Virus record (IMG/VR): IMGVR_UViG_2541047889_000005
Location: 1-24,228 of that record
DNA length: 24,228 nucleotides
Strand: one strand, 5' to 3'
From: a virus
Lineage: Duplodnaviria > Heunggongvirae > Uroviricota > Caudoviricetes
Within the stretch, counting starts at the first letter, position 1; each line of letters starts with the position of its first letter. This document shows, one piece after another, positions 2,566 through 16,281 of this stretch. The position numbers and the translations under genes were made by a program. Below the pieces are notes generated by a model that saw only the letters and a program-made list of their open reading frames with translations, had not been told where the DNA came from and did no database searches.

Positions 2566-2911
2566 TCTCTGCTCCTGTTGATACGGAAAGGGACACAGGC
2601 ACACCGTTATTCCGCCGCCCGGTCAGCTCCACCACCATTGAACCGTCAAAATTGCTGTTGATGGTGATGGAATCCAGCGTCAGCCGTGGCTCCCAGCGAC
2701 TCAGTGCCACATACACAGCCGACATGACCTGCAGGCGTAACGCCGGATTTTGTGGCTGATCTATTAAAGCCGACAGCAGGGAACCATATTCCCGGCGGGC
2801 AATGCGGCTACCCTGCGGTGTCAGCAGAATGTCCCGCACCGACTGGCGCAGATGGTCAATATCAGTAATAGCTTTACCGCTGGTATTGTTCATCCCGATA
2901 TAAAGCGTCAT
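2552..2911 (-). CDS. W: Baseplate wedge protein gpW (gp25-like)
   Basis: 119-aa ORF MTLYIGMNNTSGKAITDIDHLRQSVRDILLTPQGSRI...; start overlaps V stop (ATGA). Confidence 0.8.
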   Translation of the reverse strand: MTLYIGMNNTSGKAITDIDHLRQSVRDILLTPQGSRIARREYGSLLSALIDQPQNPALRLQVMSAVYVALSRWEPRLTLDSITINSNFDGSMVVELTGRRNNGVPVSLSVSTGAENGSD

Positions 2912-3486
2912 ACCGGGCCTCCGGTTGTGTCGCCGCCTTTCAGGACGCCAGTATGCTGATGCGCATCAACCACGATCCCGTTAGAACTCATTGCACCGCC
3001 GCCCTGGGTAACGCCACCATTGATCACCACTTCGCTGTTAATACGCGTGCGGTCAGCCTCCAGCACAAACTCACTGGTTTTCAGGGTGATGTTGTCGGCA
3101 GCCTCAATGACCATGGATTTGATGCCCCTGACATACCAGCGCCCGGTGGCGGGTTCGTATTCAAACCAGCCACCATCAGGATGTTCTGTCACGCAGGCTT
3201 CCGCCGACGTTGACGGCGGTGCGAACTGATTCGAATAGATGGCGGGCAACGCAAAGGCGGTTTCCAGATTGCCACCCAGGCTGAACAGCACAACCTGCTC
3301 GCCCACAGACGGTTTCCACCAGGTGCGCGATTTGCCCGCGCGCAGTGTCAGCCAGTTAATCCAGTTGGTTTCAAGGTCGCCCGTTTTCACCCGGCAAAGC
3401 CAGTTCTCCCGGTCCACCTCGGTGACTACACCAGTGCGGATCAGGTTGGTGATAAGGCGCATGATTTCAGTCAGTTGTGCATTCAT
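2908..3486 (-). CDS. V: Baseplate spike/assembly protein gpV
   Basis: ORF 2908..3564; probable start at ATG 3486 (MNAQLTEIMRLITNLIRTGVVTEVD...), which aligns with the P2 gpV N-terminus; AAGGA RBS upstream. Confidence 0.8.
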   Translation of the reverse strand: MNAQLTEIMRLITNLIRTGVVTEVDRENWLCRVKTGDLETNWINWLTLRAGKSRTWWKPSVGEQVVLFSLGGNLETAFALPAIYSNQFAPPSTSAEACVTEHPDGGWFEYEPATGRWYVRGIKSMVIEAADNITLKTSEFVLEADRTRINSEVVINGGVTQGGGAMSSNGIVVDAHQHTGVLKGGDTTGGPV

Positions 3487-3534
3487 GAGAGCGATCCTTG
3501 CACAACCGGGTAGAGTGATGTAATACAGAGCGTA

Positions 3535-3555
3535 TGTATGGAGAACCACACAAAA
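3535..3555. promoter_or_regulatory. Candidate late-promoter activator site (TGT-N12-ACA dyad; Ogr/B-type)
   Basis: tgtatggagaaccacacaaaa; shares TGT-N6-AACCACACAAA with the site at 10361-10380 in the O/P divergent region. Confidence 0.35.
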
Positions 3556-3581
3556 GAGAAACAATTTCTAAGGTATTTAAG

Positions 3582-4448
3582 ATGACACAAATCGCAATTT
3601 ATGGATTTAATTTCACTAAAAAAATCACATTTGACGGTGGTGAGTTAACTCCTATTTTCAGTTCATGGAGTGAGTTAAAAAAAAATGGCTGGGCTAATGA
3701 TAGGTACATCCTCACTGGTTTTTTCAAACCAAACTCGAATAACTACGCCACTCAACAGCAGCTTATTTTTGATTTACAAGCAGTTCTTAGTTTTATTGAA
3801 CAAAAAAATGTAATCATTTCAGGAGAACTTGAAAATGATGAAACCCCTTTCAATTTCAAACCATCTCTACCCAAAAAGCTTGACAAAAAAAGAGATAAGG
3901 GTGCGGGCATTATCATCATGGAAGATTATTTTGCACCAAACAGCCGAGAAAATTTTATTTGCTTAGCCATGGAAAAACTAAATAGTAAAGCCATGCTAAA
4001 ACAAGATGCCTTTAGAACATCATTTTTTAAATCAATGCTAGCTTTCCGCGACTCAATAAATTATATCGACGTCAGATATTATTTATTATTCTCGGCACTA
4101 GAAGCACTTTGCAGATTTATTAAAAATGACTACTCCCCTGCCAAAACACCACAAATAATCACTCAGGTTTTAAAAGAATATGGTTTTAATGTCGAAAAAA
4201 CAGGACATACATTAGCTCAAAGAAACATTATGCATTACTGCAAACTCCGTCACTCGCTGTTCCACAATGGTAAATACATTGCCTATCTTGATGAAAAAAA
4301 CTCAGATGGCAAAATTGAAATTCAAGATTACTCATCAAATTTGAATTTACTGGTGCCACTTGTACTAATGAAATTCATAGGATTTGATGACAATTATATA
4401 AACTGGGACTCATGGATTGATAGGAATCCATTTATCAGTAAAAAGTAA
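3582..4448 (+). CDS. Hypothetical protein, A+T-rich cargo gene inserted between tail genes V and S on the opposite strand
   Basis: ORF 3534..4448; likely ATG at 3582 (MTQIAIYGFNFTKKITFDGG...) with AGG RBS; strongly AT-rich compared with flanking GC-rich phage genes; no recognisable motif. Confidence 0.7.
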   Translation: MTQIAIYGFNFTKKITFDGGELTPIFSSWSELKKNGWANDRYILTGFFKPNSNNYATQQQLIFDLQAVLSFIEQKNVIISGELENDETPFNFKPSLPKKLDKKRDKGAGIIIMEDYFAPNSRENFICLAMEKLNSKAMLKQDAFRTSFFKSMLAFRDSINYIDVRYYLLFSALEALCRFIKNDYSPAKTPQIITQVLKEYGFNVEKTGHTLAQRNIMHYCKLRHSLFHNGKYIAYLDEKNSDGKIEIQDYSSNLNLLVPLVLMKFIGFDDNYINWDSWIDRNPFISKK

Positions 4449-4474
4449 ACTAAATTTTATAAATGTGGTTTTAT

Positions 4475-4921
4475 TTATCTCTGTAACCAATTTAGCAAAG
4501 CATCCTGAATGACAGTTTCCACATCATCATTTACGCCTAGGAGACGACGCTCTGCATAACGGACCTCCGGTCCTCTTCGACTGATGCGATCACGCAGGCC
4601 GTAGTGATGAACGCGGGCAATGCGCTGCACCTTACCTTCAAACTGCACGCTGGCAGAATCGGCGCTGGCGGCAGTTTTCAGGTATTTTGTGGTGCGCAGC
4701 TTTGTAAACATCTGACGTTTGATGCGCCCCTTTTTGCTGCGTGCTGTTACCCGTCGCGGCTCATAACTGCTGCCATCTGGATTGCGCTGCATCCTGATGT
4801 TCTGCTGCTGTGTCCGGCGCAGTTCCTGCGCCAGCTGGCGCATCATGCGGCTTCTTGCGGCTGGCTCCAGATTCGCCAGCAAGGCACTCAGCCAGTCGTC
4901 CACCTTCTGCAATTCAGCCAC
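4475..4921 (-). CDS. S: Tail completion protein gpS
   Basis: 148-aa ORF MAELQKVDDWLSALLANLEPAARSRMMRQLA...; position after R as in P2. Confidence 0.75.
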   Translation of the reverse strand: MAELQKVDDWLSALLANLEPAARSRMMRQLAQELRRTQQQNIRMQRNPDGSSYEPRRVTARSKKGRIKRQMFTKLRTTKYLKTAASADSASVQFEGKVQRIARVHHYGLRDRISRRGPEVRYAERRLLGVNDDVETVIQDALLNWLQR

Positions 4922-5345
4922 GTTTCACCGTCCACATTTCTTCAGGTTCATCAGGTTCCGCTATAGCTTCAACGCTCGACACACTGCCGTCAGTGCTGAC
5001 CAGCACACGCTCCGTCAGTTGCAGGTTCAGGCTGATATCACAGACATCGTTGCGCAGAATATCCACCTCAAAGGTGAATAGTTTTTCCCGTAACGCCGGG
5101 TTATTGATGGCATCGGGCTGGTTATCCCGCAGCCACAGCAAAACCGGGGCCATCAGCAGATTCTGGTCGCCGCTGAAATCCTCAATCACTGCGTTCAGCG
5201 TGTAACGGTACTCCCACGACATGGAGCTGGTCCCCGTGGCAACCAGCGAACCGTTATCCACAAACAGATGCAGTTTGTCCGGGTTATTGCGGACATAAGG
5301 CACTGCTTTATTAAGGGCGTGGCGCAGGGATTGTGGTTTGTTCAC
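4914..5345 (-). CDS. R: Tail completion protein gpR
   Basis: ORF 4914..5366; probable GTG start at 5345 preceded by AGGAGC, giving (M)NKPQSLRHALNKAV..., which matches the P2 gpR N-terminus. Confidence 0.75.
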   Translation of the reverse strand: MNKPQSLRHALNKAVPYVRNNPDKLHLFVDNGSLVATGTSSMSWEYRYTLNAVIEDFSGDQNLLMAPVLLWLRDNQPDAINNPALREKLFTFEVDILRNDVCDISLNLQLTERVLVSTDGSVSSVEAIAEPDEPEEMWTVKRG

Positions 5346-5592
5346 TGTTTCGCTCCTGACACGCAATAATCATGTCCACTTTGTCTGCACAGACCGCCCA
5401 GGCGGCCTCCGTTTCATCCAGCAACGCGTTCAGCTCACCGTTAGTGCGCGGCGCTGTCTGATCCAGCCGACACGGCGTCACTCGCGGACAACCACTGACG
5501 GTAAGCTGCACCTCCGGTGAGTGCCGGACGTTCCCGCAGCCGGATAATGTCAGCAGGCAAAGGAGTATCAGCCCAGCGGCGTAAATCCTCAT
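5311..5592 (-). CDS. lysC: Outer-membrane spanin lipoprotein (LysC/Rz1-like), embedded out of frame in lysB 3' end and overlapping R
   Basis: MRIYAAGLILLCLLTLSGC... has a lipobox (LSGC) after a signal peptide; proline-rich; nested in the +1 frame of the i-spanin gene as in P2 lysB/lysC. Confidence 0.7.
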   Translation of the reverse strand: MRIYAAGLILLCLLTLSGCGNVRHSPEVQLTVSGCPRVTPCRLDQTAPRTNGELNALLDETEAAWAVCADKVDMIIACQERNSEQTTIPAPRP

Positions 5593-5869
5593 TCTCACGT
5601 TTCAGTTCCTCAATCCGGCGTTGTCGTTGTCTCAGCAGCGCGCTGGTCTGTTCTGCGTCGGCATAGAGCCGCGCCTGCTCCCGGTTATTGGTTTCAGTCA
5701 GAATGGACAGGCTGATAAGCTGGCTGTTGCTCTTTGCCAGTGCCTGGCTTTTGCTCTGCAGCTCGTCCGCCTGCGTGCTGATGGTCCGGCTGGCATCAGC
5801 CAGCCGCCACGTCTGCCAGCCCAGCGCCGCCAGTAATAACGCCAGCATAACCAGCAGCAACCGGTTCAT
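5441..5869 (-). CDS. lysB: Inner-membrane spanin (LysB/Rz-like)
   Basis: 142 aa; N-terminal TM (MNRLLLVMLALLLAALGWQTW) followed by a coiled-coil-like charged region (ELKRENEDLRR); start overlaps lysA stop. Confidence 0.8.
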   Translation of the reverse strand: MNRLLLVMLALLLAALGWQTWRLADASRTISTQADELQSKSQALAKSNSQLISLSILTETNNREQARLYADAEQTSALLRQRQRRIEELKRENEDLRRWADTPLPADIIRLRERPALTGGAAYRQWLSASDAVSAGSDSAAH

Positions 5870-6243
5870 GCTGCTACCTGTTGCGCCATCTGATTACGGG
5901 TGATCCAGAAGGCAATAACGGTCAGTAGATAAAAGACCAGGGTAATAGCCCACCCCGTCCAGACGAGACTTACGACAATCAGCAATCGCATCACCCAGCT
6001 GATAAATACGTTTTCTTTTCGGGTAATGGTCTTCAGCAAAGATACCCTCAACTCCTGCCAGAGCGAGCCATTCTTAATTAACGCAGCCAGTGCTACCGGA
6101 ATTGCCGCCCATGTCAGTAAACAGGCTACCCAAACGCCGGACGCTGCCAGTACCGGAAAAATCCCCTGCGGATACACCATTGCTGCGATTAACAGCGCCA
6201 TCCATAACATCAGAAACAGTCCGCTGATTAATTTCTTTTTCAT
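5866..6243 (-). CDS. lysA: LysA-like lysis-timing membrane protein
   Basis: ORF 5866..6315; likely start at ATG 6243 (MKKKLISGLFLMLWMALLIAAMV...); about four hydrophobic segments; sits between endolysin and spanins as in P2. Confidence 0.65.
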   Translation of the reverse strand: MKKKLISGLFLMLWMALLIAAMVYPQGIFPVLAASGVWVACLLTWAAIPVALAALIKNGSLWQELRVSLLKTITRKENVFISWVMRLLIVVSLVWTGWAITLVFYLLTVIAFWITRNQMAQQVAA

Positions 6244-6244
6244 T

Positions 6245-6757
6245 TCAGTTTGCTCCCTGTAAGCACCAGGCCATCTCCCGCGCACGGCGGTTATCCAGCC
6301 CCTGATTAAACACACCTTTCACATACACCCAGCGCGGCAACTGTCGGCACGCATCCGCCCAGCGCCGCTGATTGAGCAATTTCACCAGCGTGGAGCTGCA
6401 GGCATTGCCTGTCCCCACGTTGAAGGCAAATGACACCACCGCGTCATACACTTTCTGCGGTGGCTGTTGCTTCACACACCTTTCCAGTGACCGCTCCACA
6501 CGCAGCACGTTGGAGATAAGCCCTTCTGCTGCCTGTCGTTCCGTAATGGTTTTGCCGGGAATGACGTCCGACGTATTACCAATGCCGTCAGTCCATACAC
6601 CCGCGCTGCACTGATACGGCTGCAGACGACAGCCTTCGTAATCGGCAATCAGTTTCAGTCCTTCCACGGAGGTGTGAAGCTGCTGAAAACCCGGCAGCGT
6701 GGCAGCAATAGCCAGCACGGCCCCGACAAGGCAGCGTTTAACGATTGATGGATTCAT
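6245..6757 (-). CDS. K: Endolysin, GH24 lysozyme family with N-terminal hydrophobic signal-anchor (SAR-type)
   Basis: 170 aa; N-terminal VKRCLVGAVLAIAATLPGF hydrophobic stretch, then ADYEGCRLQPYQCSAGVWTDGIGNT (E-x8-C/D-x5-T lysozyme catalytic motif as in P21 R-type endolysins); strong GGGAGGA RBS. Confidence 0.8.
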   Translation of the reverse strand: MNPSIVKRCLVGAVLAIAATLPGFQQLHTSVEGLKLIADYEGCRLQPYQCSAGVWTDGIGNTSDVIPGKTITERQAAEGLISNVLRVERSLERCVKQQPPQKVYDAVVSFAFNVGTGNACSSTLVKLLNQRRWADACRQLPRWVYVKGVFNQGLDNRRAREMAWCLQGAN

Positions 6758-6953
6758 AATCCTCCCGCGAGATCTGCCCGTCGCGCAGAAGCTGGTAGGC
6801 TTTGTGTTTGTAGTACCAGTTGATAGCCAGCATCAGTACACCAATCATCAGGCCGCCCAGCGTTGAGGCATCCTTGATGGACAAATCGCCCAGCCAGGCC
6901 AGCACGACGGCGATGCAATACGTGATAAAGGCGCTGATTCGCTCAAGCGTCAT
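6738..6953 (-). CDS. Y: Holin (small, two-TM class II type; possible pinholin)
   Basis: 71 aa with two hydrophobic segments and a charged C-terminus, immediately upstream of and overlapping the endolysin gene. Confidence 0.7.
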   Translation of the reverse strand: MTLERISAFITYCIAVVLAWLGDLSIKDASTLGGLMIGVLMLAINWYYKHKAYQLLRDGQISREDYESINR

Positions 6954-6956
6954 AAT

Positions 6957-7160
6957 TCAGTCCCATAGCTGGACGGTCTGCACGGTGGTGGTTGTCGGAA
7001 TGTCCGGCAGCTCCACCTGCAGCCCGTGAGGTAAAAAGGGGCCGTATTCGGCAAGCCCCGGATTTGCCTTCAGTACCTGCTCCGTGACACCCTGCGTGCG
7101 CCCGTAATGACGCCAGCAAAGTGCGTCCACCGTGTCATACTGATGCGCACGCACTTTCAT
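6957..7160 (-). CDS. X: Tail protein gpX
   Basis: 67 aa (MKVRAHQYDTVDALCWRHYG...), same size and position as P2 gpX. Confidence 0.75.
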   Translation of the reverse strand: MKVRAHQYDTVDALCWRHYGRTQGVTEQVLKANPGLAEYGPFLPHGLQVELPDIPTTTTVQTVQLWD

Positions 7161-7624
7161 CAGATAAGCTCCACTGTGCAGTGCGGCGCATCCTGCACCC
7201 GGCTGATGGCCCAGCGGGCGTCACGCCATAAATCACCGCTTGCTTCCGCCAGTTCCTCGCCTCGCTTCGCACCGGATGCCGTGGCGTCATAGTCCTGGTA
7301 ACGTTCGTTGAGCATGGCGCGTGCCCAGCAGTAAACCGCGTTGAAATAGTGCTGAATGCGCTCGCTTTTGCCGTCCAGTTGTTCCGCCGGGACTTCTGCC
7401 AGCGAGGCATACCCCAGCATCTGCTGGCGTCTGCGAAACTCATACAGCTCTGCGTTGACCTCCGAAATTGCCGACAGCGCAACCTGCTTTAAACGCGGCT
7501 GCGTCACCGTGCCGTCAGTGCGCATGACACTGCGAAACTCCGACAGGTCCACATCAGGCCAGAACGGCGTATTTCTGATGATTTCCGCCTGTTCCGGTGC
7601 CTGTTCTGGCGCAACAAACTTCAT
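7160..7624 (-). CDS. L: Head completion/stabilisation protein gpL
   Basis: ORF 7160..7687; ATG at 7624 with AGGAGA RBS gives MKFVAPEQAPEQAEIIRNTPFWPDVDL...ELYEFRRRQ..., resembling P2 gpL; an upstream GTG start at 7687 is possible. Confidence 0.7.
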   Translation of the reverse strand: MKFVAPEQAPEQAEIIRNTPFWPDVDLSEFRSVMRTDGTVTQPRLKQVALSAISEVNAELYEFRRRQQMLGYASLAEVPAEQLDGKSERIQHYFNAVYCWARAMLNERYQDYDATASGAKRGEELAEASGDLWRDARWAISRVQDAPHCTVELI

Positions 7625-7719
7625 GCTGCTTTCTCCTGAAATAAAGGGCGGTGGACGGGGTTTTGATGTGGCAGTGCCTTTCGCCACCCCGTGCCGCCCG
7701 TGCGCGGGGGCACGTTCTG

Positions 7720-8370
7720 TCAGCGGCTGTCATTGCGCAGTCTGCGCTCCAGCTGCTGTTTGTCTTTTTTCACGCCACAGCGGGGATCGAGCTGTAACGC
7801 ATGGTTGAGATGATTAAGGGCGGAAGCCGGATTGCTTTCACTCAGGACAGCGCCAATCGCTTTATGCAGACGCGCCCGTGACTGGTCCGGCATATCCAGA
7901 CCGTCTGTCAGCTCCAGCGTCTGCAGCAACAGATCGGCATCAAAGCCGGTGGCGGCAAGCATTGCGCTCTGCGCTGCATCTGCCATTTCCTCTGCCAGCA
8001 CGGTCTGCACGTTGCGGTTACCCAGCGGCATCACCCAGCCATGACGCAGGGCATGACGCCCGATCTCCAGCGCCCCGGCATAATCTCCGGCATCAATGCG
8101 CCACAGCATCACGTACATCAGCACGTCATCCTGTTGAGCGCCTCCGGCAGCCAGGACGCCCTCCGCCCAGGCGGCATATTTCGGCAGCAGCTCCACCTTG
8201 ATTTCCGCTTTTTTCACCGTGGACTGAACGCCCTTGAGACGGCGGCGGTCTTCCACCAGTTGCAGCAGCATCAGGTCATAGCCCGACGCGTGGCGAACGC
8301 TGCCGCCCTCGCGGGCGGCCTGTTCAGCCTGAACGCGCAGGCGATGCTGCCGTGCGGGACTCAGGCTCAT
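7720..8370 (-). CDS. M: Terminase small (endonuclease) subunit gpM
   Basis: 216 aa; ...GAQQDDVLMYVMLWRIDAGDYAGALEIGRHAL... aligns with the P2 gpM core. Confidence 0.8.
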   Translation of the reverse strand: MSLSPARQHRLRVQAEQAAREGGSVRHASGYDLMLLQLVEDRRRLKGVQSTVKKAEIKVELLPKYAAWAEGVLAAGGAQQDDVLMYVMLWRIDAGDYAGALEIGRHALRHGWVMPLGNRNVQTVLAEEMADAAQSAMLAATGFDADLLLQTLELTDGLDMPDQSRARLHKAIGAVLSESNPASALNHLNHALQLDPRCGVKKDKQQLERRLRNDSR

Positions 8371-8373
8371 GGG

Positions 8374-9432
8374 TTACGCTCCGGCTTCTGCTGCGGCGGC
8401 GCTGAAATCGCCAATCTGGATGTTTTCCACCAGCGCAGCGCAGCGGTAGTCCTCAACCACATAGGCTTCGTTAACAGATTCAAAGTTTTCAATCCGGTCA
8501 CGTTTCGGGTTGTCGATAACTGAACGGCGGCGGGTGTCTTCCTGCCAGTAGATGGACAGGTTATCCAGACGGGTGATCAGCAGCGCATTCGGCGGGAAGA
8601 ACGGCGCACGCACGGCCTGCAGACCGCCCATGCGTTTCTGACTGATAATCATATCGGCTGCCAGTTTTTCACTGTTTTCCTGCTCTTTGTTGACCAGCGG
8701 GAAATACTTGTCAGACAGCAGTTCACGACCGCAAATCACCACCAGATCGTCATCATCCTGGTAGACCACGTCGATAAGCTCATTGACCGCATCCATCACT
8801 ACAGCGTCCAGGTTGGCATATTCGCCACCTTTCCCGACTTTCACCGCACCCGGTGTGGTTTCGCCGCCCGTGGTGGTGCTGCCCATGACGTGATCCGGTG
8901 CATCCTCACGGATTTTCTGCAGCCAGCCTTTGTTCACATCCTGCAGCAGCGGGTTTTCACTACGGTTGGAGGTTTTCGCACGCTTCACGCCGTTAAAGCC
9001 GATCATGATGCGGTCCAGTGCCTGACGTTTCACGATGGCGTCACGGATACGCACCTGGAAATCCTGAAACTTCGCCCACAGGTCCAGCTTCGCGTAGGTC
9101 AGCACCGTGTCAAAGTTGGTCTGCTCGCATTTATATTCCACATCGACCATCAGCGTCGGATCGACAGGTTCACGCTCTTTCGCGGTGGTGTCAGTGGTTC
9201 CGGCAATGGTGCTGCCAACACCCAGCCCCAGCAACTGACCGGACTGCTCAGTCACTGGCGTGACGTTAATCAGCGTCAGGAAGGCGGCGGACTGCTGGAT
9301 CTGGTCTTCCAGCGTCTGCTGCACAGACGGCTCCACAGTGAATTTGCTGGACAGATCTTCAACTGCCACACCGTTCAGACGCGCCAGCTGCTGCAGGTAA
9401 GCGTTAAAAGCAAAGCGGGTATTCTTCTTCAT
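8374..9432 (-). CDS. N: Major capsid protein gpN
   Basis: 352 aa, position and size of the P2 gpN precursor between O and M. Confidence 0.85.
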   Translation of the reverse strand: MKKNTRFAFNAYLQQLARLNGVAVEDLSSKFTVEPSVQQTLEDQIQQSAAFLTLINVTPVTEQSGQLLGLGVGSTIAGTTDTTAKEREPVDPTLMVDVEYKCEQTNFDTVLTYAKLDLWAKFQDFQVRIRDAIVKRQALDRIMIGFNGVKRAKTSNRSENPLLQDVNKGWLQKIREDAPDHVMGSTTTGGETTPGAVKVGKGGEYANLDAVVMDAVNELIDVVYQDDDDLVVICGRELLSDKYFPLVNKEQENSEKLAADMIISQKRMGGLQAVRAPFFPPNALLITRLDNLSIYWQEDTRRRSVIDNPKRDRIENFESVNEAYVVEDYRCAALVENIQIGDFSAAAAEAGA

Positions 9433-9448
9433 CGGGTTTTGTGCTCCA

Positions 9449-10282
9449 TCAGCAATTGGTCAGAGTGTCAGCGGGGGCGTTACCGCCTGTTGCACGCTGG
9501 CGGTAGTCCTGGCGGCTGTCTTCATGACTCAGCTTGTCCACCAGTTCGTTAAAGGCGGTCTGCTGTGCCTGCAGGGCAGTCTCCAGCTCAGACAGGCGTT
9601 CTTCCTGCTCAGACAGGGATTTTTCGGTGCGTGCGCTCAGGTTCTGCTGCTCAGTGGCGACCAGCTCCACGGCCTTATGCACATCAGAGAACCGGGCGTC
9701 ATCGGACTGCTCTTTTTTGGTAAACAGCGCCGTGACGCGGGCAAACAGGGACGGTTTGTCGTCCTGGACTTCTTCCAGTTCGATCACCGTTTCCTCTGCA
9801 GCGGTAAAAAGATTGGCGGGATTCTGCTTGCGGTTTGCCAGCGGGTTATGGGCTGCACTGGCGCTGAATGTCAGCATTTCCGTACCCAGACTGGCGGGAT
9901 CATCAGTGGCAGCCAGGCCGACCAGATAGGCTTTGCCCGTATCAGCGAACTTCGGGCTGACTTCCATAGAGGTGAATAATTTCTGGCCTTTTTTCACCAG
10001 TTCCACCAGGGACTCCGTTGGCTCAACGTCGGCATACAGCGCCATCTTGCCTGCCAGCGGACCTTCCGTGATTTCTTCAGCAAACAGCGCCGTCACCTTG
10101 CCGTAGCGGTTAAAGGTGCTGTCCGGCAGATAAGACTTGATGTGCTCAAGGTTAATCAGCGCGGTATACACCGCCGGGTTGTAGCTGGCTGCCATCTGTT
10201 CCAGCCATTCACGCTGGATTTCGCGTCCGTCGGTGGTGGCACCTTCCACCCCGATGCGAAAACGCTTTGCTTTCACTGTCAT
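9449..10282 (-). CDS. O: Capsid scaffolding protein gpO
   Basis: 277 aa, acidic/coiled-coil C-terminal half, first gene of the leftward head operon divergent from P. Confidence 0.8.
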   Translation of the reverse strand: MTVKAKRFRIGVEGATTDGREIQREWLEQMAASYNPAVYTALINLEHIKSYLPDSTFNRYGKVTALFAEEITEGPLAGKMALYADVEPTESLVELVKKGQKLFTSMEVSPKFADTGKAYLVGLAATDDPASLGTEMLTFSASAAHNPLANRKQNPANLFTAAEETVIELEEVQDDKPSLFARVTALFTKKEQSDDARFSDVHKAVELVATEQQNLSARTEKSLSEQEERLSELETALQAQQTAFNELVDKLSHEDSRQDYRQRATGGNAPADTLTNC

Positions 10283-10360
10283 GAGCCGTGCTCCGTTAGA
10301 AAAAACTTACTGGAGCCTTATGGTTGCGGTGATAGGGGCAGTGAAACAATGCGCGGTATT

Positions 10361-10380
10361 TGTACCGACAACCACACAAA
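10361..10380. promoter_or_regulatory. Candidate late-promoter activator site in the O/P divergent intergenic region (TGT-N12-ACA)
   Basis: tgtaccgacaaccacacaaa; P2-family late promoters carry a TGT-N12-ACA dyad bound by Ogr/B-type zinc-finger activators; the same extended motif recurs at 3535-3555. Confidence 0.4.
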
Positions 10381-10424
10381 CCGCAGGCGGGGAAAGCCTT
10401 CATTCAAGGCTGTAGGTTTGTGCC

Positions 10425-12191
10425 ATGAACACCACACTGACACCCGCAGATCTCGATCCCCGTCGGCAGGCCATGCTGCTGTACTTTCAGGGATACCGCG
10501 TCGCCCGCATTGCTGAAATGCTGGGCGAGAAAGTTGCAACCGTTCACAGCTGGAAAAAACGCGACAAGTGGGGTGACTATGGGCCGCTGGATCAGATGCA
10601 GCTCACCACCGCCGCACGCTACTGCCAGCTCATTATGAAGGAGCACAAAGAAGGGAAAGATTTCAAAGAGATTGACCTGCTGGCGCGCCAGTCGGAGCGC
10701 CACGCGCGGATCGGCAAGTTTAACAATGGCGGCAACGAAGCCGACTTAAACCCTAACGTCGCCAACCGCAACAAAGGCCCACGCCGTCAGCCGGAAAAGA
10801 ATGTTTTCACCGATGAGCAGATTGAGAAGCTGGAAGAAATCTTCCATTCCTCCATGTTCAACTACCAGCGCCACTGGTGGGAAGCCGGAAAAACCAACCG
10901 CATCCGCAACCTGCTGAAGTCACGCCAGATCGGCGCGACCTTTTACTTTGCCCGTGAAGCCCTGATTGACGCTCTGCTTACCGGACGTAACCAGATTTTC
11001 CTTTCTGCCAGTAAGGCACAGGCCCACGTCTTCAAACAGTACATCATCGACTTTGCCAAAGAAGTGGAGGTGGAGCTGAAAGGCGATCCGATGGTGCTTC
11101 CCAACGGGGCCACACTGTATTTCCTCGGAACCAATGCCCGCACGGCCCAGAGTTACCACGGCAACCTGTATCTGGATGAATATTTCTGGATACCGAAATT
11201 CCAGGAGCTGCGCAAAGTGGCTTCCGGTATGGCTATTCACAAAAAATGGCGACAAACCTATTTTTCCACGCCATCCAGCCTGACCCACAGTGCTTATCCG
11301 TTCTGGTCCGGTGCGCTGTTCAACCGTGGACGCAACAAAGCTGACAAGGTGGACATCGACCTGTCCCACAGCAATCTGGCCCCCGGCCTGCTGTGCGCAG
11401 ACGGGCAATACCGCCAGATAGTCACCGTGGAAGATGCGGTGCGCGGCGGCTGTAACCTGTTCGACCTCGACCAGCTACGCATGGAGTACAGCCCGGACGA
11501 ATACCAGAACCTGCTGATGTGCGAGTTCGTGGACGATCTCGCGTCCGTGTTCCCGCTCAGCGAACTGCAGGCGTGCATGGTGGACAGTTGGGAAGTCTGG
11601 ACCGACTTTCATGCACTGGCCCTGCGCCCGTTTGGCTGGCGCGAGGTGTGGATCGGTTATGACCCGGCAAAAGGTACGCAGAACGGCGACAGCGCCGGAT
11701 GCGTGGTGGTGGCACCACCAGCCGTGCCAGGCGGTAAGTTTCGCATTCTTGAGCGTCACCAGTGGCGCGGGATGGACTTCCGCGCCCAGGCGGACGCCAT
11801 CAAAAAACTGACCGAACAGTACAACGTGACCTATATCGGCATCGACTCGACAGGTGTCGGTCACGGGGTTTACGAGAACGTGAAAGCGTTTTTTCCAGCC
11901 GTCCGGGAGTTTGTCTACAACCCCAACGTTAAAAACGCCCTGGTACTCAAGGCCTACGACATTATCAGCCACCGCCGTCTGGAGTTTGACGCCGGACACA
12001 CCGACATAGCGCAGTCATTTATGGCAATCCGTCGCGCCACCACCGCCAGCGGCAACCGCCCGACCTATGAAGCCAGCCGCAGCGAAGAAGCCAGCCACGC
12101 CGATCTGGCCTGGGCAACGATGCACGCTCTGTTTAACGAACCGCTGCAGGGCGAATCCGCCAATACCAGCAATATTGTGGAGATTTTTTGA
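10425..12191 (+). CDS. P: Terminase large (ATPase) subunit gpP
   Basis: 588 aa; N-terminal MNTTLTPADLDPRRQAMLLYFQGYRVARIAEMLG... and overall size typical of P2 gpP; divergent from O. Confidence 0.85.
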   Translation: MNTTLTPADLDPRRQAMLLYFQGYRVARIAEMLGEKVATVHSWKKRDKWGDYGPLDQMQLTTAARYCQLIMKEHKEGKDFKEIDLLARQSERHARIGKFNNGGNEADLNPNVANRNKGPRRQPEKNVFTDEQIEKLEEIFHSSMFNYQRHWWEAGKTNRIRNLLKSRQIGATFYFAREALIDALLTGRNQIFLSASKAQAHVFKQYIIDFAKEVEVELKGDPMVLPNGATLYFLGTNARTAQSYHGNLYLDEYFWIPKFQELRKVASGMAIHKKWRQTYFSTPSSLTHSAYPFWSGALFNRGRNKADKVDIDLSHSNLAPGLLCADGQYRQIVTVEDAVRGGCNLFDLDQLRMEYSPDEYQNLLMCEFVDDLASVFPLSELQACMVDSWEVWTDFHALALRPFGWREVWIGYDPAKGTQNGDSAGCVVVAPPAVPGGKFRILERHQWRGMDFRAQADAIKKLTEQYNVTYIGIDSTGVGHGVYENVKAFFPAVREFVYNPNVKNALVLKAYDIISHRRLEFDAGHTDIAQSFMAIRRATTASGNRPTYEASRSEEASHADLAWATMHALFNEPLQGESANTSNIVEIF

Positions 12192-13261: not shown

Positions 13262-14266
13262 TTATTCTTCTGAATCATCATAAACATCCATTCCTTCGGT
13301 CTGATTTCTAATATAAGAAGTCCCCATAGAATTAGCAATCGCAGTCCGAATTAACCCTACATGAGTGAAAAACACCCCTAACCTAGCACGCTTTAACTCA
13401 GACTCATCATCATAGTCATCTTCATTACTTATAATTCTTCTAACCATTGCCTTATCTTCGTCAATAGCCGAAGGTAGCCCACTCTTTAAAGCGTCAATAC
13501 ACTCACCTACAGTTATAATTTTATTTTTAATTAATTCAGAAAGCAAATCATCATAATTTTCATCATCAGATTTATTATCAGGTGGTAATTCACTTGCAGC
13601 TATCATTTTCAGCAATTCTACGTCAAGCATAGTTCCTCTATCTAGTCTGCTTGTCTCAACATACCCCTCACGCTCTGATAACACTCTTTCAAATTCGAAA
13701 TCAACGACTTCAAGCAAAGCAGATACTCTATTAATTGCTCGCCTAAGAGGAAGTGGAACACTTTGCTCTTTTTTGTATTGCAGTTTATGAGATGCTGCAG
13801 CCCAAATATGCTGAGAAAGCGTTCGTATTTGCACCTCCACTTTCATATTTTTAAAATCACTAAAGGATGGAACTCTTAGCCATTCTTCTGGAGGTTGTAT
13901 TACATAATGATGAGATTGGTACCCAAATCTATCCTCATCCAGTTCATCAAGTTTATTCTCTTGCTTCAAAATAATGAAATGTTCTTTCAGACAAGATATA
14001 ACCTTTTCAACATCTCGCTTAAATAGCATTATTAATCGGATTCCAACATAATCATCCAAGTCAACTATTGACTCAATCTTTAGAGGTTTTCGGTTATCCT
14101 TATTAATAATAGAACTTAATGTTTTGACACGGCTTTCAATTGGAACCCCTAAAGACAATTTATTCTCCGACAAAATAACATCAATTTGCTCAACCATAAC
14201 TCGTCTGAACAATTCCGCAACTGAGCCGTAAATTGAATGCTGTTCTTTTAATTCTTCGTCTGTCAT
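13262..14266 (-). CDS. RelA/SpoT-fold nucleotidyltransferase (small alarmone synthetase-like; candidate toxSAS/CapRel-like fused toxin-antitoxin)
   Basis: 334 aa; synthetase-fold motifs ESRVKTLSSIINK, DYVGIRLIMLF, FGYQSHHYVI, EVQIRTLSQHIWAAASHKLQYK; about 130-aa acidic C-terminal extension; AT-rich; lies between portal gene and cos. Confidence 0.7.
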   Translation of the reverse strand: MTDEELKEQHSIYGSVAELFRRVMVEQIDVILSENKLSLGVPIESRVKTLSSIINKDNRKPLKIESIVDLDDYVGIRLIMLFKRDVEKVISCLKEHFIILKQENKLDELDEDRFGYQSHHYVIQPPEEWLRVPSFSDFKNMKVEVQIRTLSQHIWAAASHKLQYKKEQSVPLPLRRAINRVSALLEVVDFEFERVLSEREGYVETSRLDRGTMLDVELLKMIAASELPPDNKSDDENYDDLLSELIKNKIITVGECIDALKSGLPSAIDEDKAMVRRIISNEDDYDDESELKRARLGVFFTHVGLIRTAIANSMGTSYIRNQTEGMDVYDDSEE

Positions 14267-14383
14267 CTATCTTACCTAACTTATATAAATGAATCAGATA
14301 TAAAACATTGCATAATTTTAATTCAAGTGGACAACATATAAATTATCCGATCTAAACCACTTAAACAACAGGTTTTGCGCGCG

Positions 14384-14402
14384 CTCGTATCCCCGCCACG
14401 CC
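14384..14402 (-). other. cos-like cohesive-end site (P2/186 type)
   Basis: Minus-strand GGCGTGGCGGGGATACGAG; the first 13 nt match my recollection of the P2/186 19-nt cos core (GGCG[A/T]GGCGGGGA...); located next to the portal gene as expected. Confidence 0.5.
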
Positions 14403-14451
14403 TGCCCGCTTTATGTAGTAGTTTTCATGCAGGTGCATGATCTACGCGAAA

Positions 14452-14471
14452 GCCCGCCAGTTCTGGCGGGC
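14452..14471 (-). terminator. GC-rich hairpin downstream of the membrane-protein gene (putative terminator)
   Basis: gcccgccag-tt-ctggcgggc; followed on the minus transcript by UUUCGCG. Confidence 0.4.
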
Positions 14472-14519
14472 CCTAGCAAAAACGATCCTCAAACGATCAT
14501 GCGATCTCATGCAGCATAG

Positions 14520-15362
14520 TCATGCACGATCATTTGACTCAGCATCTGCTGCACGCTTGCTGCGCGAAGATGCACTTTTACTATCAATCTTTCGACAGTT
14601 CTTTCTATCCCTGGCTTCATTTTCTTTAAATTTGTTATATGTCTCAGTATCAAAAAACGAAATTGTTTCAACCTCATCTTTTGGTATGAGCACACGGAAA
14701 TCTTCGATATTAAGCCGAGACATTCCACTTATCACACCACTATCAAGATAATGTTGGTGATAGTTAGTCGTGATACTAATCGTTAGATCATCTTTATCCC
14801 GATATCCGCTTAACATCGGGAGAAGTTCAAGGTGCTCTGAAAGCCCGTTTTCTAACGCCGGACAAGTAACAAGACCAACATAGATTTTGCGAGACGACAG
14901 AGTTGCTATGATCGGAAACTGTCTTGCGGACGCTTCCATGAGTAATGATTCGAAAGCGTTATTACCCACAGCTTTAGCTAAGGCATCCCAGCGACGATCT
15001 CCACGTGATGTGCGTAACTTATTTCCAAAACCTGAAATCGCAGCGAGGACAATTGAAATCATAACCCATGCTATCTGTTTGATTTCATTTATTCTTTGAA
15101 GTTTGTCTTTCGATGAAGACAACATGCCATTAAAACTGTCAGGTGTTAGATTCAAGGCATTAGCCAGCCAACGAAACCCTCCGCTGACGTTCAAAATAAA
15201 GGTGAAAAAACCGCCAAGGAGAAAAAAAACGATACCCCAGGCAGCCACAAAAAAATAAGCGTCCCAGCCGTTGGAACGCTTATATCGGTATCTTGTTGAA
15301 AGTGATAGGTTTACATAAATAAAACCACTAACCAAAATCACTGCTAAAAGTAATGTTGCCAT
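14520..15362 (-). CDS. Hypothetical membrane protein: three N-terminal TM helices plus about 165-aa cytoplasmic domain
   Basis: 280 aa; hydrophobic segments ATLLLAVILVSGFIYV, AYFFVAAWGIVFFLLGGFFTFIL, IAWVMISIVLAAISGF; start overlaps the stop of the upstream 71-aa gene (TAATG). Confidence 0.65.
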   Translation of the reverse strand: MATLLLAVILVSGFIYVNLSLSTRYRYKRSNGWDAYFFVAAWGIVFFLLGGFFTFILNVSGGFRWLANALNLTPDSFNGMLSSSKDKLQRINEIKQIAWVMISIVLAAISGFGNKLRTSRGDRRWDALAKAVGNNAFESLLMEASARQFPIIATLSSRKIYVGLVTCPALENGLSEHLELLPMLSGYRDKDDLTISITTNYHQHYLDSGVISGMSRLNIEDFRVLIPKDEVETISFFDTETYNKFKENEARDRKNCRKIDSKSASSRSKRAADAESNDRA

Positions 15363-15577
15363 TATCTGGTTCTATTAGTTTTCTCTTTTACAGTGCTCGT
15401 TTTGATGCCTTCAAGCTTATCCATCTGTGCCTTGATGGCATCCATTGCTCTTTTGTTAGACAAGTCTACGGACACAAAACCATCTTTACTAAGATTGAGT
15501 TTGTCCTGGTTCTCTTTAAGAACCCTTGCCAGACGTTCAACTGGGTTACCCAGGCTAAATGCGGCGATGCTTGACAT
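15362..15577 (-). CDS. Hypothetical small protein (71 aa), translationally coupled to the downstream membrane protein
   Basis: ATG preceded by a strong GGGGGAG RBS; charged and soluble; 270-bp AT-rich intergenic region upstream. Confidence 0.6.
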   Translation of the reverse strand: MSSIAAFSLGNPVERLARVLKENQDKLNLSKDGFVSVDLSNKRAMDAIKAQMDKLEGIKTSTVKEKTNRTR

Positions 15578-15847
15578 AACTCCCCCTTTTCACATGGCGC
15601 GGAAGTCTACACTCCGACGCCTACAACCTCAACAGATTATCTTTAAAATTTAGACAACAATATCATCTGTTGATTGCGTTACTTAAACTTAAGTTCAATG
15701 CGCTCGATCATGCAAGCTGTTTCTTAAGAACTGTTAATTTCCTGGCATATATAGTGGTTAAGGTAACAAATTGACACTAACGCCTCGCATAGCTCGTTGT
15801 TCAACCTTGCTGACGCCAGAAGCAAGTTCAGACGCCAGCAACGTTTC

Positions 15848-16081
15848 TTAATGCAGCCAGCTGTCGTCTTCCCACACCTTCTGCATAATTTTCATCACTT
15901 GTTTTCTTTCTTCGTCCAGTTGCAATCCGGTCAGTTCCACACCGTTAGAGCTACCTTTGCGGATACGAATTACCATTTTGGGATACAGAGGACGCAGATT
16001 GCGGTAAAGCTCGGATTCAAGGGCGTCCAGGGTAGACTGGCTAATCTTCTGCTCTTTATCGATCATTATTTCAATGCGCAT
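15848..16081 (-). CDS. DinI-family protein (SOS operon; Tum/DinI-like)
   Basis: 77 aa MRIEIMIDKEQKISQSTLDALESELYRNL...EERKQVMKIMQKVWEDDSW aligns along its length with E. coli DinI. Confidence 0.75.
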   Translation of the reverse strand: MRIEIMIDKEQKISQSTLDALESELYRNLRPLYPKMVIRIRKGSSNGVELTGLQLDEERKQVMKIMQKVWEDDSWLH

Positions 16082-16092
16082 AAAAAGTCACC

Positions 16093-16281
16093 TCAACTGA
16101 TGACATCCATTGAGCGGTTGTATTCGTGGGTTCTGATTTTTGCCATGAGTTCATCTGTTAGTTCAGAAACCCACTGCAAAGCCAGCCCCTTCTCTTCATC
16201 ACTACACTCACTAGCCGCTACAAGCTTAAGAAAAAAATCAATGCGCTGGAGCTTCAAAGACTCCAAAAAATAGTCCTGCAT
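16093..16281 (-). CDS. Hypothetical small protein (62 aa), first gene of the LexA-box operon
   Basis: GGAGGA RBS; stop is followed 11 nt later by the DinI-like start with its own GAGGTG RBS. Confidence 0.55.
   Translation of the reverse strand: MQDYFLESLKLQRIDFFLKLVAASECSDEEKGLALQWVSELTDELMAKIRTHEYNRSMDVIS

What the first reader, a model, noticed from the sequence alone, without database searches (positions are those of the whole stretch)
3535..10380. Shared extended motif TGT-N6-AACCACACAAA at two late-operon control regions (3535-3555 and 10361-10380)
Both the V-upstream region and the O/P divergent region contain TGT-N12-ACA dyads that share the extended right half AACCACACAAA. P2-family late promoters are activated by a zinc-finger protein (Ogr/B) binding such dyads. 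In the V region the site lies between V and the opposite-strand cargo gene, so the cargo gene could be co-regulated with late genes or could have displaced the promoter geometry. The spacing to the V and P start codons (about 47-49 nt from the motif edge) is tighter than I would expect, so the exact assignment is uncertain.
Basis: partly seen in the sequence, partly recalled or inferred. Interest (0 to 1): 0.4.

Follow-up and report, generated by a model that had tools for sequence, protein, structure and literature searches.

The report
P2-type late-promoter activator sites
The two matching motifs are the expected binding sites for the small zinc-finger late-gene activator (Ogr/B family) of a P2/186-like prophage, placed as in phage P2, so the finding is real but ordinary.

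Summary
TGT-N6-AACCACACAAA occurs exactly twice, at 3535-3554 and 10361-10380, both on the + strand. The 11-mer is expected 0.04 times by chance; plain TGT-N12-ACA is not enriched (6 found, 6.4 expected).

The window is a P2/186-like E. coli prophage. Site 1 lies between gene V (ATG 3486, - strand) and an AT-rich divergent cargo gene (3582-4448). Site 2 lies between O (ATG 10282, -) and P (ATG 10425, +).

The annotated P2 and 186 records show the same layout: one shared activator site for the divergent O and P promoters and one for V, each about 55 bp from the transcription start. P2's V start is the first base of its ATG.

In 65 related loci, 26 unrelated V-upstream sequences all carry a perfect dyad; 25 lie 54.5-57.5 bp from the V ATG. 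In 46 O-P variants it lies 55.5 bp from the P ATG.

The "tight" spacing is therefore the normal -55 geometry with leaderless or nearly leaderless V and P transcripts. The cargo insertion has not shifted the promoter, and the cargo gene is badly placed for co-activation. The activator gene lies outside the window, and no transcript data exist.

The parts
3535..3552 (.). Activator-binding dyad of the V-operon late promoter (PV). It reads TGT-N12-ACA, and in V sense the 22-mer 3533-3554 reads TTTGTGTGGTTCTCCATACATA. The centre is 3543.5, which is 57.5 bp from the V ATG.
   Evidence: The positional equivalent is annotated as an activator binding site in P2. A perfect dyad at 54.5-57.5 bp is present in 25 of 26 unrelated V-upstream types.
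10361..10378 (.). Single activator-binding dyad shared by the divergent O-operon and P-operon late promoters. In O sense the 22-mer 10359-10380 reads TTTGTGTGGTTGTCGGTACAAA. The centre is 10369.5, which is 55.5 bp from the P ATG and 87.5 bp from the O ATG.
   Evidence: P2 and 186 each annotate one shared site for both promoters. The position is invariant in 46 distinct O-P intergenic variants.
3495..3500 (-). Inferred -10-like hexamer CAAGGA of PV, within TTGTGCAAGG. P2 has TTGTGCAATC at the same place.
   Evidence: Read directly from the sequence. This block is conserved in the 57%-identical Klebsiella cassette. It is an inference with no transcript data.
3486..3488 (-). Predicted start of the V-operon transcript, at or 2 nt before the V ATG (leaderless or nearly so).
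   Evidence: The dyad centre minus 55.5 gives 3488. P2's annotated V transcription start is the first base of the V ATG. P2 is cited as a source of leaderless genes. Only 2 of 26 V-upstream types have a Shine-Dalgarno-like 4-mer.
2908..3486 (-). Gene V (baseplate spike), first gene of the V-W-J-I-H operon.
   Evidence: Pfam Phage_base_V and the GpV Apex motif. Similarity to relatives stops exactly at the ATG.
3582..4448 (+). AT-rich cargo gene divergent from V, 288 aa, in the same slot and orientation as P2 orf30. It has a probable C-terminal HEPN fold with an invariant R-x4-H motif.
4475..4921 (-). Gene S, last gene of the O operon and the right border of the variable S-V slot.
   Evidence: Pfam Phage_tail_S. 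The S-V gap ranges from 78 bp to 2.3 kb among relatives.
9449..10282 (-). Gene O (capsid scaffold), first gene of the O operon. The predicted transcript start is near 10310-10314.
   Evidence: Pfam Phage_GPO. The dyad-to-ATG distance of 87.5 equals that in 186 and PSP3.
10413..10418 (+). Inferred -10-like hexamer TAGGTT of the P promoter. It corresponds to TAGCCT of P2 and 186 and sits 6 nt before the P ATG.
   Evidence: It is kept as TAGGTT, TATGTT or TAGGCT in all 46 variants.
10425..12191 (+). Gene P (large terminase). Its ATG lies where P2's mapped P transcript starts, so the mRNA is predicted to be leaderless.
   Evidence: Pfam terminase domains. The N-terminus aligns with P2 gpP from residue 3. 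The dyad-to-ATG distance is 55.5 here against 78.5 in P2, 186 and PSP3, and the 23-nt difference equals their leader length.

Best explanation
The two motifs are binding sites for the prophage's Ogr/B/Delta-family zinc-finger late activator. Site 2 is one site shared by the back-to-back O and P late promoters. Site 1 serves the V promoter. The activator bound about 55 bp upstream of each transcription start recruits host RNA polymerase to promoters that lack a usable -35 element. This switches on head, lysis and tail genes late in lytic growth.

The shared extension AACCACACAAA is the reverse complement of TTTGTGTGGTT. That is the better-conserved half-site and it lies on the promoter-distal side relative to O and V. 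Both copies are on the + strand because O and V are both on the - strand.

The short distance to the V and P start codons arises because these two transcripts start at or within about 2 nt of the ATG. They are leaderless or nearly so.

Shown here: the sequences, the positions, the gene identities, the conservation, and the match to annotated P2 and 186 features. Inferred: binding by the activator, the transcription start points, and leaderless translation.
For: 1. The gene order H-I-J-W-V | cargo | S...O | P-Q mirrors P2, with V, S, O and P confirmed by Pfam.

2. P2 RefSeq annotates one activator site for pO and pP (3057-3087), with starts at 3016 and 3127, which is 55-56 bp either side. It annotates a pV site (10239-10266) with the V start at the first base of the ATG. 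The 186 record annotates one B-protein site for pV and p12.

3. Among 65 related loci there are 48 distinct V-upstream sequences falling into 26 unrelated types. All carry a perfect TGT-N12-ACA. The distance to the ATG is 54.5 in 1 type, 55.5 in 15, 56.5 in 6, 57.5 in 3 and 69.5 in 1. The outlier has a GTG start and a Shine-Dalgarno sequence.

4. In 46 O-P variants the dyad centre is always 55.5 bp from the P ATG. TGT and ACA are invariant while the spacer varies.

5. A matrix trained on relatives picks the two window sites as the top hits.

6. The half-site TTGTGTG lies in the same orientation in 186 (GTTGTGTGGGCGG), in P2 (TGTTGTGTCAG), and in the tail-sheath promoter of close relatives (TTTTGTGTGAATAACGGTACAA).

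7. Prophages that share this late region encode a 72-aa Ogr_Delta zinc-finger protein after gene D.

8. The literature gives TGT-N12-ACA as the P2 late-promoter consensus, reports a shared PP/PO site in another P2-like phage (PMC3931495), and cites P2 as a source of leaderless genes (PMC4633059).

9. No sigma-70 consensus promoter is found in either control region.
Against: There are no transcript or binding data for this prophage. The activator gene lies outside the window, so its presence in this element is only inferred from relatives. Site 1 is 2 bp further from the ATG than the mode, ends ACAT rather than ACAA, and scores at the top of the shuffle range rather than clearly beyond it (16.5 against a shuffle maximum of 16.3). 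An AAGGA that could act as a ribosome-binding site lies 9-13 nt upstream of the V ATG, so a longer leader from another start cannot be excluded. The -10-like hexamers are weak and were assigned by analogy.
Confidence: 0.9

Rival explanations
1. Site 1 is a two-way switch. As well as activating V, activator binding controls the divergent cargo gene. It would do so either by activating it, as in the shared O/P arrangement, or by occluding its promoter so that the probable HEPN toxin-like gene is shut off during late lytic growth.
For: The dyad lies only 27 nt from the cargo Shine-Dalgarno and ATG region. Any cargo promoter must therefore overlap the dyad or the PV core. A single site serving two divergent promoters has a precedent at O/P.
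Against: A start 55.5 bp from the dyad centre would fall at about 3599, which is 17 nt inside the cargo ORF. The cargo start codon position is conserved in the 57%-identical Klebsiella homologue. P2 orf30 starts only 27.5 bp from its dyad centre. No conserved or convincing sigma-70 promoter for the cargo gene was found. The repression idea has no direct support.
Confidence: 0.12
2. The extended identity of the two sites is coincidence, or reflects a recent copy of one site into the other, and only the generic dyad matters.
For: Plain TGT-N12-ACA occurs at chance frequency. Relatives use many different spacers and inner half-site bases at the V site. The three bases AAC/GTT beyond the conserved TTTGTGTG are therefore not required.
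Against: The exact 11-mer occurs twice against 0.04 expected. About 7-8 of the 11 shared bases fall at positions that are conserved family-wide (T-TGT-R-Y). The tail-sheath promoter of close relatives has the same TTTGTGTG. The flanks of the two sites are unrelated, so this is not a duplication.
Confidence: 0.25
3. The dyads are sites for a host regulator such as CRP, or are RNA hairpin or terminator elements, rather than sites for the phage activator.
For: TGT...ACA resembles the outer bases of the CRP consensus. This comparison rests on my own knowledge and was not tested here.
Against: The CRP consensus spacing corresponds to TGT-N10-ACA, not N12 (my own knowledge). The window sites are symmetric only at TGT/ACA and cannot form a stable hairpin. 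The fixed distance to late-gene start codons and the annotated P2 and 186 sites point to the phage activator.
Confidence: 0.03

Closest known systems
Bacteriophage P2 late promoters PO/PP and PV with their Ogr binding sites (RefSeq NC_001895)
   Same: There is one dyad between the divergent O and P genes and one upstream of V, each about 55 bp from the transcription start. The V transcript starts at its ATG. A divergent AT-rich cargo gene (orf30) sits between S and V next to the site. The -10-like TTGTGCAA block upstream of V and the TAGNNT hexamer upstream of P are also shared.
   Different: The P2 sites are imperfect (TGT-N12-CCA at O/P, TGT-N11-ACA or TGT-N12-CAA at V), whereas the window's are perfect. 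P2 gene P has a 23-nt leader with a ribosome-binding site, which this lineage lacks entirely. The cargo protein is unrelated to Orf30. The immunity repressor here is of the 186 CI type, not P2 C.
Coliphage 186 B-protein sites at pV/p12 and pJ (RefSeq NC_001317)
   Same: One B site is shared by the divergent scaffold and terminase promoters. The half-site GTTGTGTGG has the same orientation. The dyad-to-O-homologue ATG distance is 87.5, identical to the window. The activator is a 72-aa C4 zinc-finger protein, and the repressor is of the CI type.
   Different: The right half in 186 is CCA rather than ACA. The 186 terminase gene has a 23-nt leader. In 186 there is no cargo gene between the S and V homologues (69-bp gap).
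Escherichia phage 500465-1 (Wadgaonvirus) and related Klebsiella/E. coli P2-like prophages
   Same: The O/P control region is 99.6% identical, including the same dyad. The tail-sheath promoter dyad is TTTTGTGTGAATAACGACACAA. The Ogr_Delta gene follows gene D.
   Different: Its S-V slot is empty (78 bp) and carries a different, perfectly palindromic V site (TTTGTATCAGCACTGATACAA) at 55.5 bp. The window's V promoter came with its cargo cassette.

Membership tests
Ogr/B/Delta-dependent late promoters of P2-like phages | A TGT-N12-ACA element of dyad symmetry upstream of the promoter | tested here: met
   Perfect matches at 3535-3552 and 10361-10378. The consensus is as stated in PMC3931495.
Ogr/B/Delta-dependent late promoters of P2-like phages | Location upstream of the late operons (P-Q, O...S, V...G, FI...D) | tested here: met
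   The sites lie upstream of V and between O and P. The FI promoter is outside the window, but close relatives have the dyad there.
Ogr/B/Delta-dependent late promoters of P2-like phages | Element centred about 55 bp upstream of the transcription start | not testable with these tools
   There are no transcript data for this prophage. Indirectly, the distances to start codons match P2 and 186 once their mapped starts and leaders are taken into account, and they are conserved in relatives.
Ogr/B/Delta-dependent late promoters of P2-like phages | One site shared by the divergent O and P promoters | tested here: met
   Only one conserved dyad lies in the 142-bp O-P gap. A second TGT-N12-ACA over the P ATG is not conserved. 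This is the same arrangement as annotated in P2 and 186.
Ogr/B/Delta-dependent late promoters of P2-like phages | No recognisable sigma-70 -35/-10 consensus promoter, as expected for activator dependence | tested here: met
   The consensus scan finds none in 10200-10500 and none upstream of V. Only weak -10-like hexamers are present.
Ogr/B/Delta-dependent late promoters of P2-like phages | A cognate Ogr_Delta (PF04606) zinc-finger activator encoded by the same element | tested here: inconclusive
   The gene would lie beyond the left end of the window. It is present at the expected place in prophages that share the late region (L005:7078-7296, L003:29211-29429).
Ogr/B/Delta-dependent late promoters of P2-like phages | Activation requires the activator and the alpha subunit of host RNA polymerase | not testable with these tools
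   This needs genetics or biochemistry.
Leaderless mRNAs (as reported for P2 gene V) | Transcript 5' end at the A of an AUG start codon, with no ribosome-binding site | tested here: inconclusive
   For P: the ATG is 7 nt after the -10-like hexamer and 55.5 bp from the dyad, and there is no good ribosome-binding site. For V: the predicted start is 0-2 nt before the ATG, but an AAGGA lies upstream. Across relatives, 24 of 26 V-upstream types lack a ribosome-binding-like 4-mer. There is no 5'-end data.

The most novel reading that the evidence does not exclude
The V late promoter (activator site plus core) is not part of the conserved phage backbone. It travels inside the swappable S-V cargo cassette. 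Each of at least 25 unrelated cassettes carries its own version with the dyad held 54.5-57.5 bp from the V ATG. In this cassette the same site may also silence the divergent HEPN-type gene once the activator appears, so that the phage switches off its own toxin-like defence gene as it enters late lytic growth.
Probability: 0.12. Interest if true: 0.45.

Novelty: new member of a known kind. Interest (0 to 1): 0.2.

Why it matters
The result mainly supports annotation. It fixes the late-promoter architecture of a very common E. coli and Klebsiella prophage lineage, which matches 1,844 of 5,426 complete E. coli genomes. It also explains the spacing that looked odd.

Two points go slightly beyond the textbook picture. 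First, the large-terminase gene in this lineage has lost the whole 23-nt leader found in P2, 186 and PSP3. It is predicted to be translated from a leaderless mRNA, as reported for P2 gene V. Second, every cargo cassette inserted between S and V brings its own V promoter, with the activator site at a fixed distance from the ATG. This gives a simple rule for finding V promoters and cassette borders in P2-like prophages.

Tried and rejected
1. Generic dyad enrichment was rejected as evidence, because TGT-N12-ACA occurs at chance frequency, as does TTGT-N12-ACAA (2 found, 0.58 expected).

2. I first suspected that site 2 served only O, because the P ATG seemed too close. I dropped this after finding that P2 and 186 annotate one shared site, that the -10-like hexamer is homologous, and that the P ATG sits exactly at P2's mapped start.

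3. I searched for a sigma-70 promoter for the cargo gene. There is no consensus match and only weak candidates in a permissive scan. None is conserved in the Klebsiella homologue.

4. A third dyad over the P start codon (10419-10436, 15.5 bits) was rejected as functional, because many relatives have TGG instead of TGT there.

5. Cargo homology to P2 Orf30 was tested and none was found.

6. The primary papers on Ogr, B and Delta binding (PMC177091, PMC2144757) are not held. I relied on RefSeq feature annotation and secondary citations instead.

7. The exact source genome of the window is not among the complete E. coli genomes searched (best match 94% coverage, 98.5% identity). The element's own ogr gene could therefore not be checked.
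Full report
**What is in the sequence**

The motif TGT-N6-AACCACACAAA occurs exactly twice, at 3535-3554 (TGTATGGAGAACCACACAAA) and at 10361-10380 (TGTACCGACAACCACACAAA). Both copies are on the + strand, and no further match appears even with three mismatches allowed.

The exact 11-mer is found twice against 0.04 expected. The bare TGT-N12-ACA is not enriched: 6 matches against 6.37 expected. What is unusual is therefore the extended half-site and the location, not the generic dyad.

**Genomic context**

The window is a P2/186-like prophage read as the mirror image of the P2 map.
- On the - strand: I (1059-1664), J, W and V (2908-3486).
- On the + strand: an AT-rich ORF (3582-4448).
- On the - strand: S (4475-4921) through O (9449-10282).
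- On the + strand: P (10425-12191) and Q.
- After Q: a variable region, a replication gene, a 186-type CI repressor and an integrase.

Close relatives are Escherichia phage 500465-1 (Wadgaonvirus) and many Klebsiella and E. coli prophages. Matches occur in 1,844 of 5,426 complete E. coli genomes. Site 1 lies in the 95-bp gap between the divergent V and cargo genes. Site 2 lies in the 142-bp gap between the divergent O and P genes.

**Comparison with mapped promoters**

The P2 RefSeq record annotates a single activator binding site for pO and pP at 3057-3087. The P and O transcript starts are at 3016 and 3127, which is 55-56 bp either side of the site centre. It also annotates a pV site at 10239-10266, with the V transcript start at 10308, the first base of the V ATG. 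The 186 record annotates one B-protein site for the corresponding divergent promoters and one for the tail-sheath promoter.

In the window the dyad centres are 57.5 bp from the V ATG, 55.5 bp from the P ATG and 87.5 bp from the O ATG. In P2, 186 and PSP3 the centre-to-O distance is 95.5, 87.5 and 87.5, and the centre-to-P distance is 78.5.

The 23-bp difference at P equals the length of the P leader in P2 and 186. The window's P protein aligns with P2 gpP from residue 3. The P ATG of this lineage therefore sits exactly where P2's P transcript starts.

The -10-like hexamer is also homologous. P2 and 186 have TAGCCT followed by 6 nt and then the start. The window has TAGGTT (10413-10418) followed by 6 nt and then the ATG.

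Upstream of V, the block TTGTGCAAGG corresponds to P2's TTGTGCAATC at the same distance from the ATG. P2 is cited in the literature as one of the few sources of leaderless genes expressed in E. coli, with reference to the 1985 P2 late-promoter paper (PMC4633059).

**Conservation in relatives**

I fetched 80 viral contigs whose P protein is 94-100% identical to the window's and located V, S, O and P in them by tblastn.

*Upstream of V.* Sixty-five loci gave 48 distinct 100-nt sequences. The S-V gap ranged from 78 bp to 2.3 kb, which means many different cargo insertions.
- Every sequence has a perfect TGT-N12-ACA.
- Reduced to 26 types with unrelated core-promoter sequence, the dyad-centre-to-ATG distance is 54.5 (1 type), 55.5 (15), 56.5 (6), 57.5 (3, including the window's type) and 69.5 (1).
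- The single outlier is also the only type with a GTG start, and it has a strong ribosome-binding sequence.
- Only 2 of the 26 types have a ribosome-binding-like 4-mer at -17 to -5, which fits leaderless V translation across the group.

*Between O and P.* Forty-six distinct variants all place the dyad centre 55.5 bp from the P ATG. Small indels occur only on the O side (85.5-88.5). TGT and ACA are invariant while the 12-bp spacer varies.

*Specificity.* A weight matrix trained on the relatives' V sites alone, with the window's type excluded, ranks the window's two sites at the top. Scores are 20.5 and 18.9 bits for the two strands of site 2 and 16.5 for site 1. Block shuffles gave a mean maximum of 11.9 and a highest value of 16.3.

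**The extended half-site**

Read in the sense of O and V, the sites are TTTGTGTGGTTGTCGGTACAAA and TTTGTGTGGTTCTCCATACATA. The promoter-distal half, TTTGTGTGG, matches the following:
- GTTGTGTGGGCGG at the shared 186 site.
- ATTGTGTGAAC upstream of the 186 V homologue.
- TGTTGTGTCAG in P2.
- TTTTGTGTGAATAAC(G/A)... at the tail-sheath promoter of close relatives.

The family profile is T-TGT-R-Y-C-A ... T-G-R-Y-ACA-A. About 7-8 of the 11 shared bases are therefore at positions constrained family-wide. The remainder may be lineage preference or chance. Both copies lie on the + strand simply because O and V are both on the - strand.

**The activator**

The window ends inside the tail-fibre gene, so the position where ogr/B lies (after gene D) is outside it. 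In prophages that share this late region, a 72-aa Ogr_Delta (PF04606) protein with the C-x2-C-x22-C-x4-C pattern is encoded there. It is 51-63% identical to P2 Ogr, 186 B and the homologue of phage 500465-1. Its presence in this particular element is inferred, not shown.

**The cargo gene and the promoter**

Similarity to most relatives stops exactly at the V ATG. GC content falls from about 56% to about 33% across 3500-4500. The "empty" relatives carry a quite different V site (TTTGTATCAGCACTGATACAA) directly after the S stop codon. The V promoter of the window therefore belongs to the cargo cassette, yet it keeps the standard geometry.

The cassette recurs with 100% identity in 24 complete E. 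coli genomes. A 57%-identical version sits in the same slot of a Klebsiella phage. In an alignment of the two cassettes, the conserved blocks are the V -10-like region, the two dyad halves and the cargo ribosome-binding site with its ATG.

P2 has the same arrangement with an unrelated gene, orf30. The cargo ATG (3582) is 38.5 bp from the dyad centre. A divergent start with the O/P-type geometry would therefore fall about 17 nt inside the ORF. I found no convincing sigma-70 promoter for the cargo gene. Co-activation with late genes is thus unlikely. Interference or repression by the bound activator cannot be excluded and is untested.

**Verdict**

These are orthologues of well-known elements, so novelty is low. 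Two modest additions emerge. This lineage has a predicted leaderless terminase gene. The V promoter, with its activator site at a fixed distance from the ATG, is carried by each S-V cargo cassette.

Noticed in passing
[not shown]
   Followed up: partly
window 13262-14266 (-): A 334-aa RelA/SpoT-domain protein (Pfam PF04607; PADLOC candidate PDC-S33, E = 1.8e-16) sits in the variable slot between Q and the replication gene, the position of P2 old/tin. It may be an alarmone-synthetase-type toxin or defence gene. Neighbouring ORFs at 14520-15362 (phrog_3630) and 15797-16273 have no assignable function.
   Followed up: partly
window 10419-10436 (+): A further perfect TGT-N12-ACA (TGTGCCATGAACACCACA) overlaps the P start codon and scores 15.5 bits with the activator-site matrix. 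Many relatives have TGG instead of TGT here, so it is probably fortuitous. If bound, it would sit on the predicted P transcript start.
   Followed up: partly
window 15103-15122 (+): TTGTCTTTCGATGAAGACAA matches TTGT-N12-ACAA. It lies inside the 280-aa ORF 14520-15362 (- strand) and is not among the top matrix hits, so it is likely chance (2 matches found against 0.58 expected).
   Followed up: no
L026 (IMGVR_UViG_2703718809_000018), upstream of V at about 2263: This is the only relative whose V-upstream dyad is 69.5 rather than about 55.5 bp from the start codon. It is also the only one with a GTG start, and it has a strong AAGGGGGGAAGG ribosome-binding sequence. It looks like a leadered version of the V promoter, which fits the idea that the other versions are leaderless.
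   Followed up: partly
window 10395-10411 (+): The inverted repeat AGCCTT-CATTC-AAGGCT lies between the shared dyad and the P -10-like hexamer, at about -30 to -14 of the predicted P start. It is only partly preserved in relatives, and its role is unknown.
   Followed up: no
L005 (E. coli A16 prophage) 29902-32112 versus window 13262-16281: Prophages with an identical V-cargo-S cassette carry different genes in the Q-to-replication-gene slot: a DUF4435 protein plus an AAA ATPase in strain A16, and the RelA/SpoT-like gene in the window. The two variable slots therefore assort independently.
   Followed up: no
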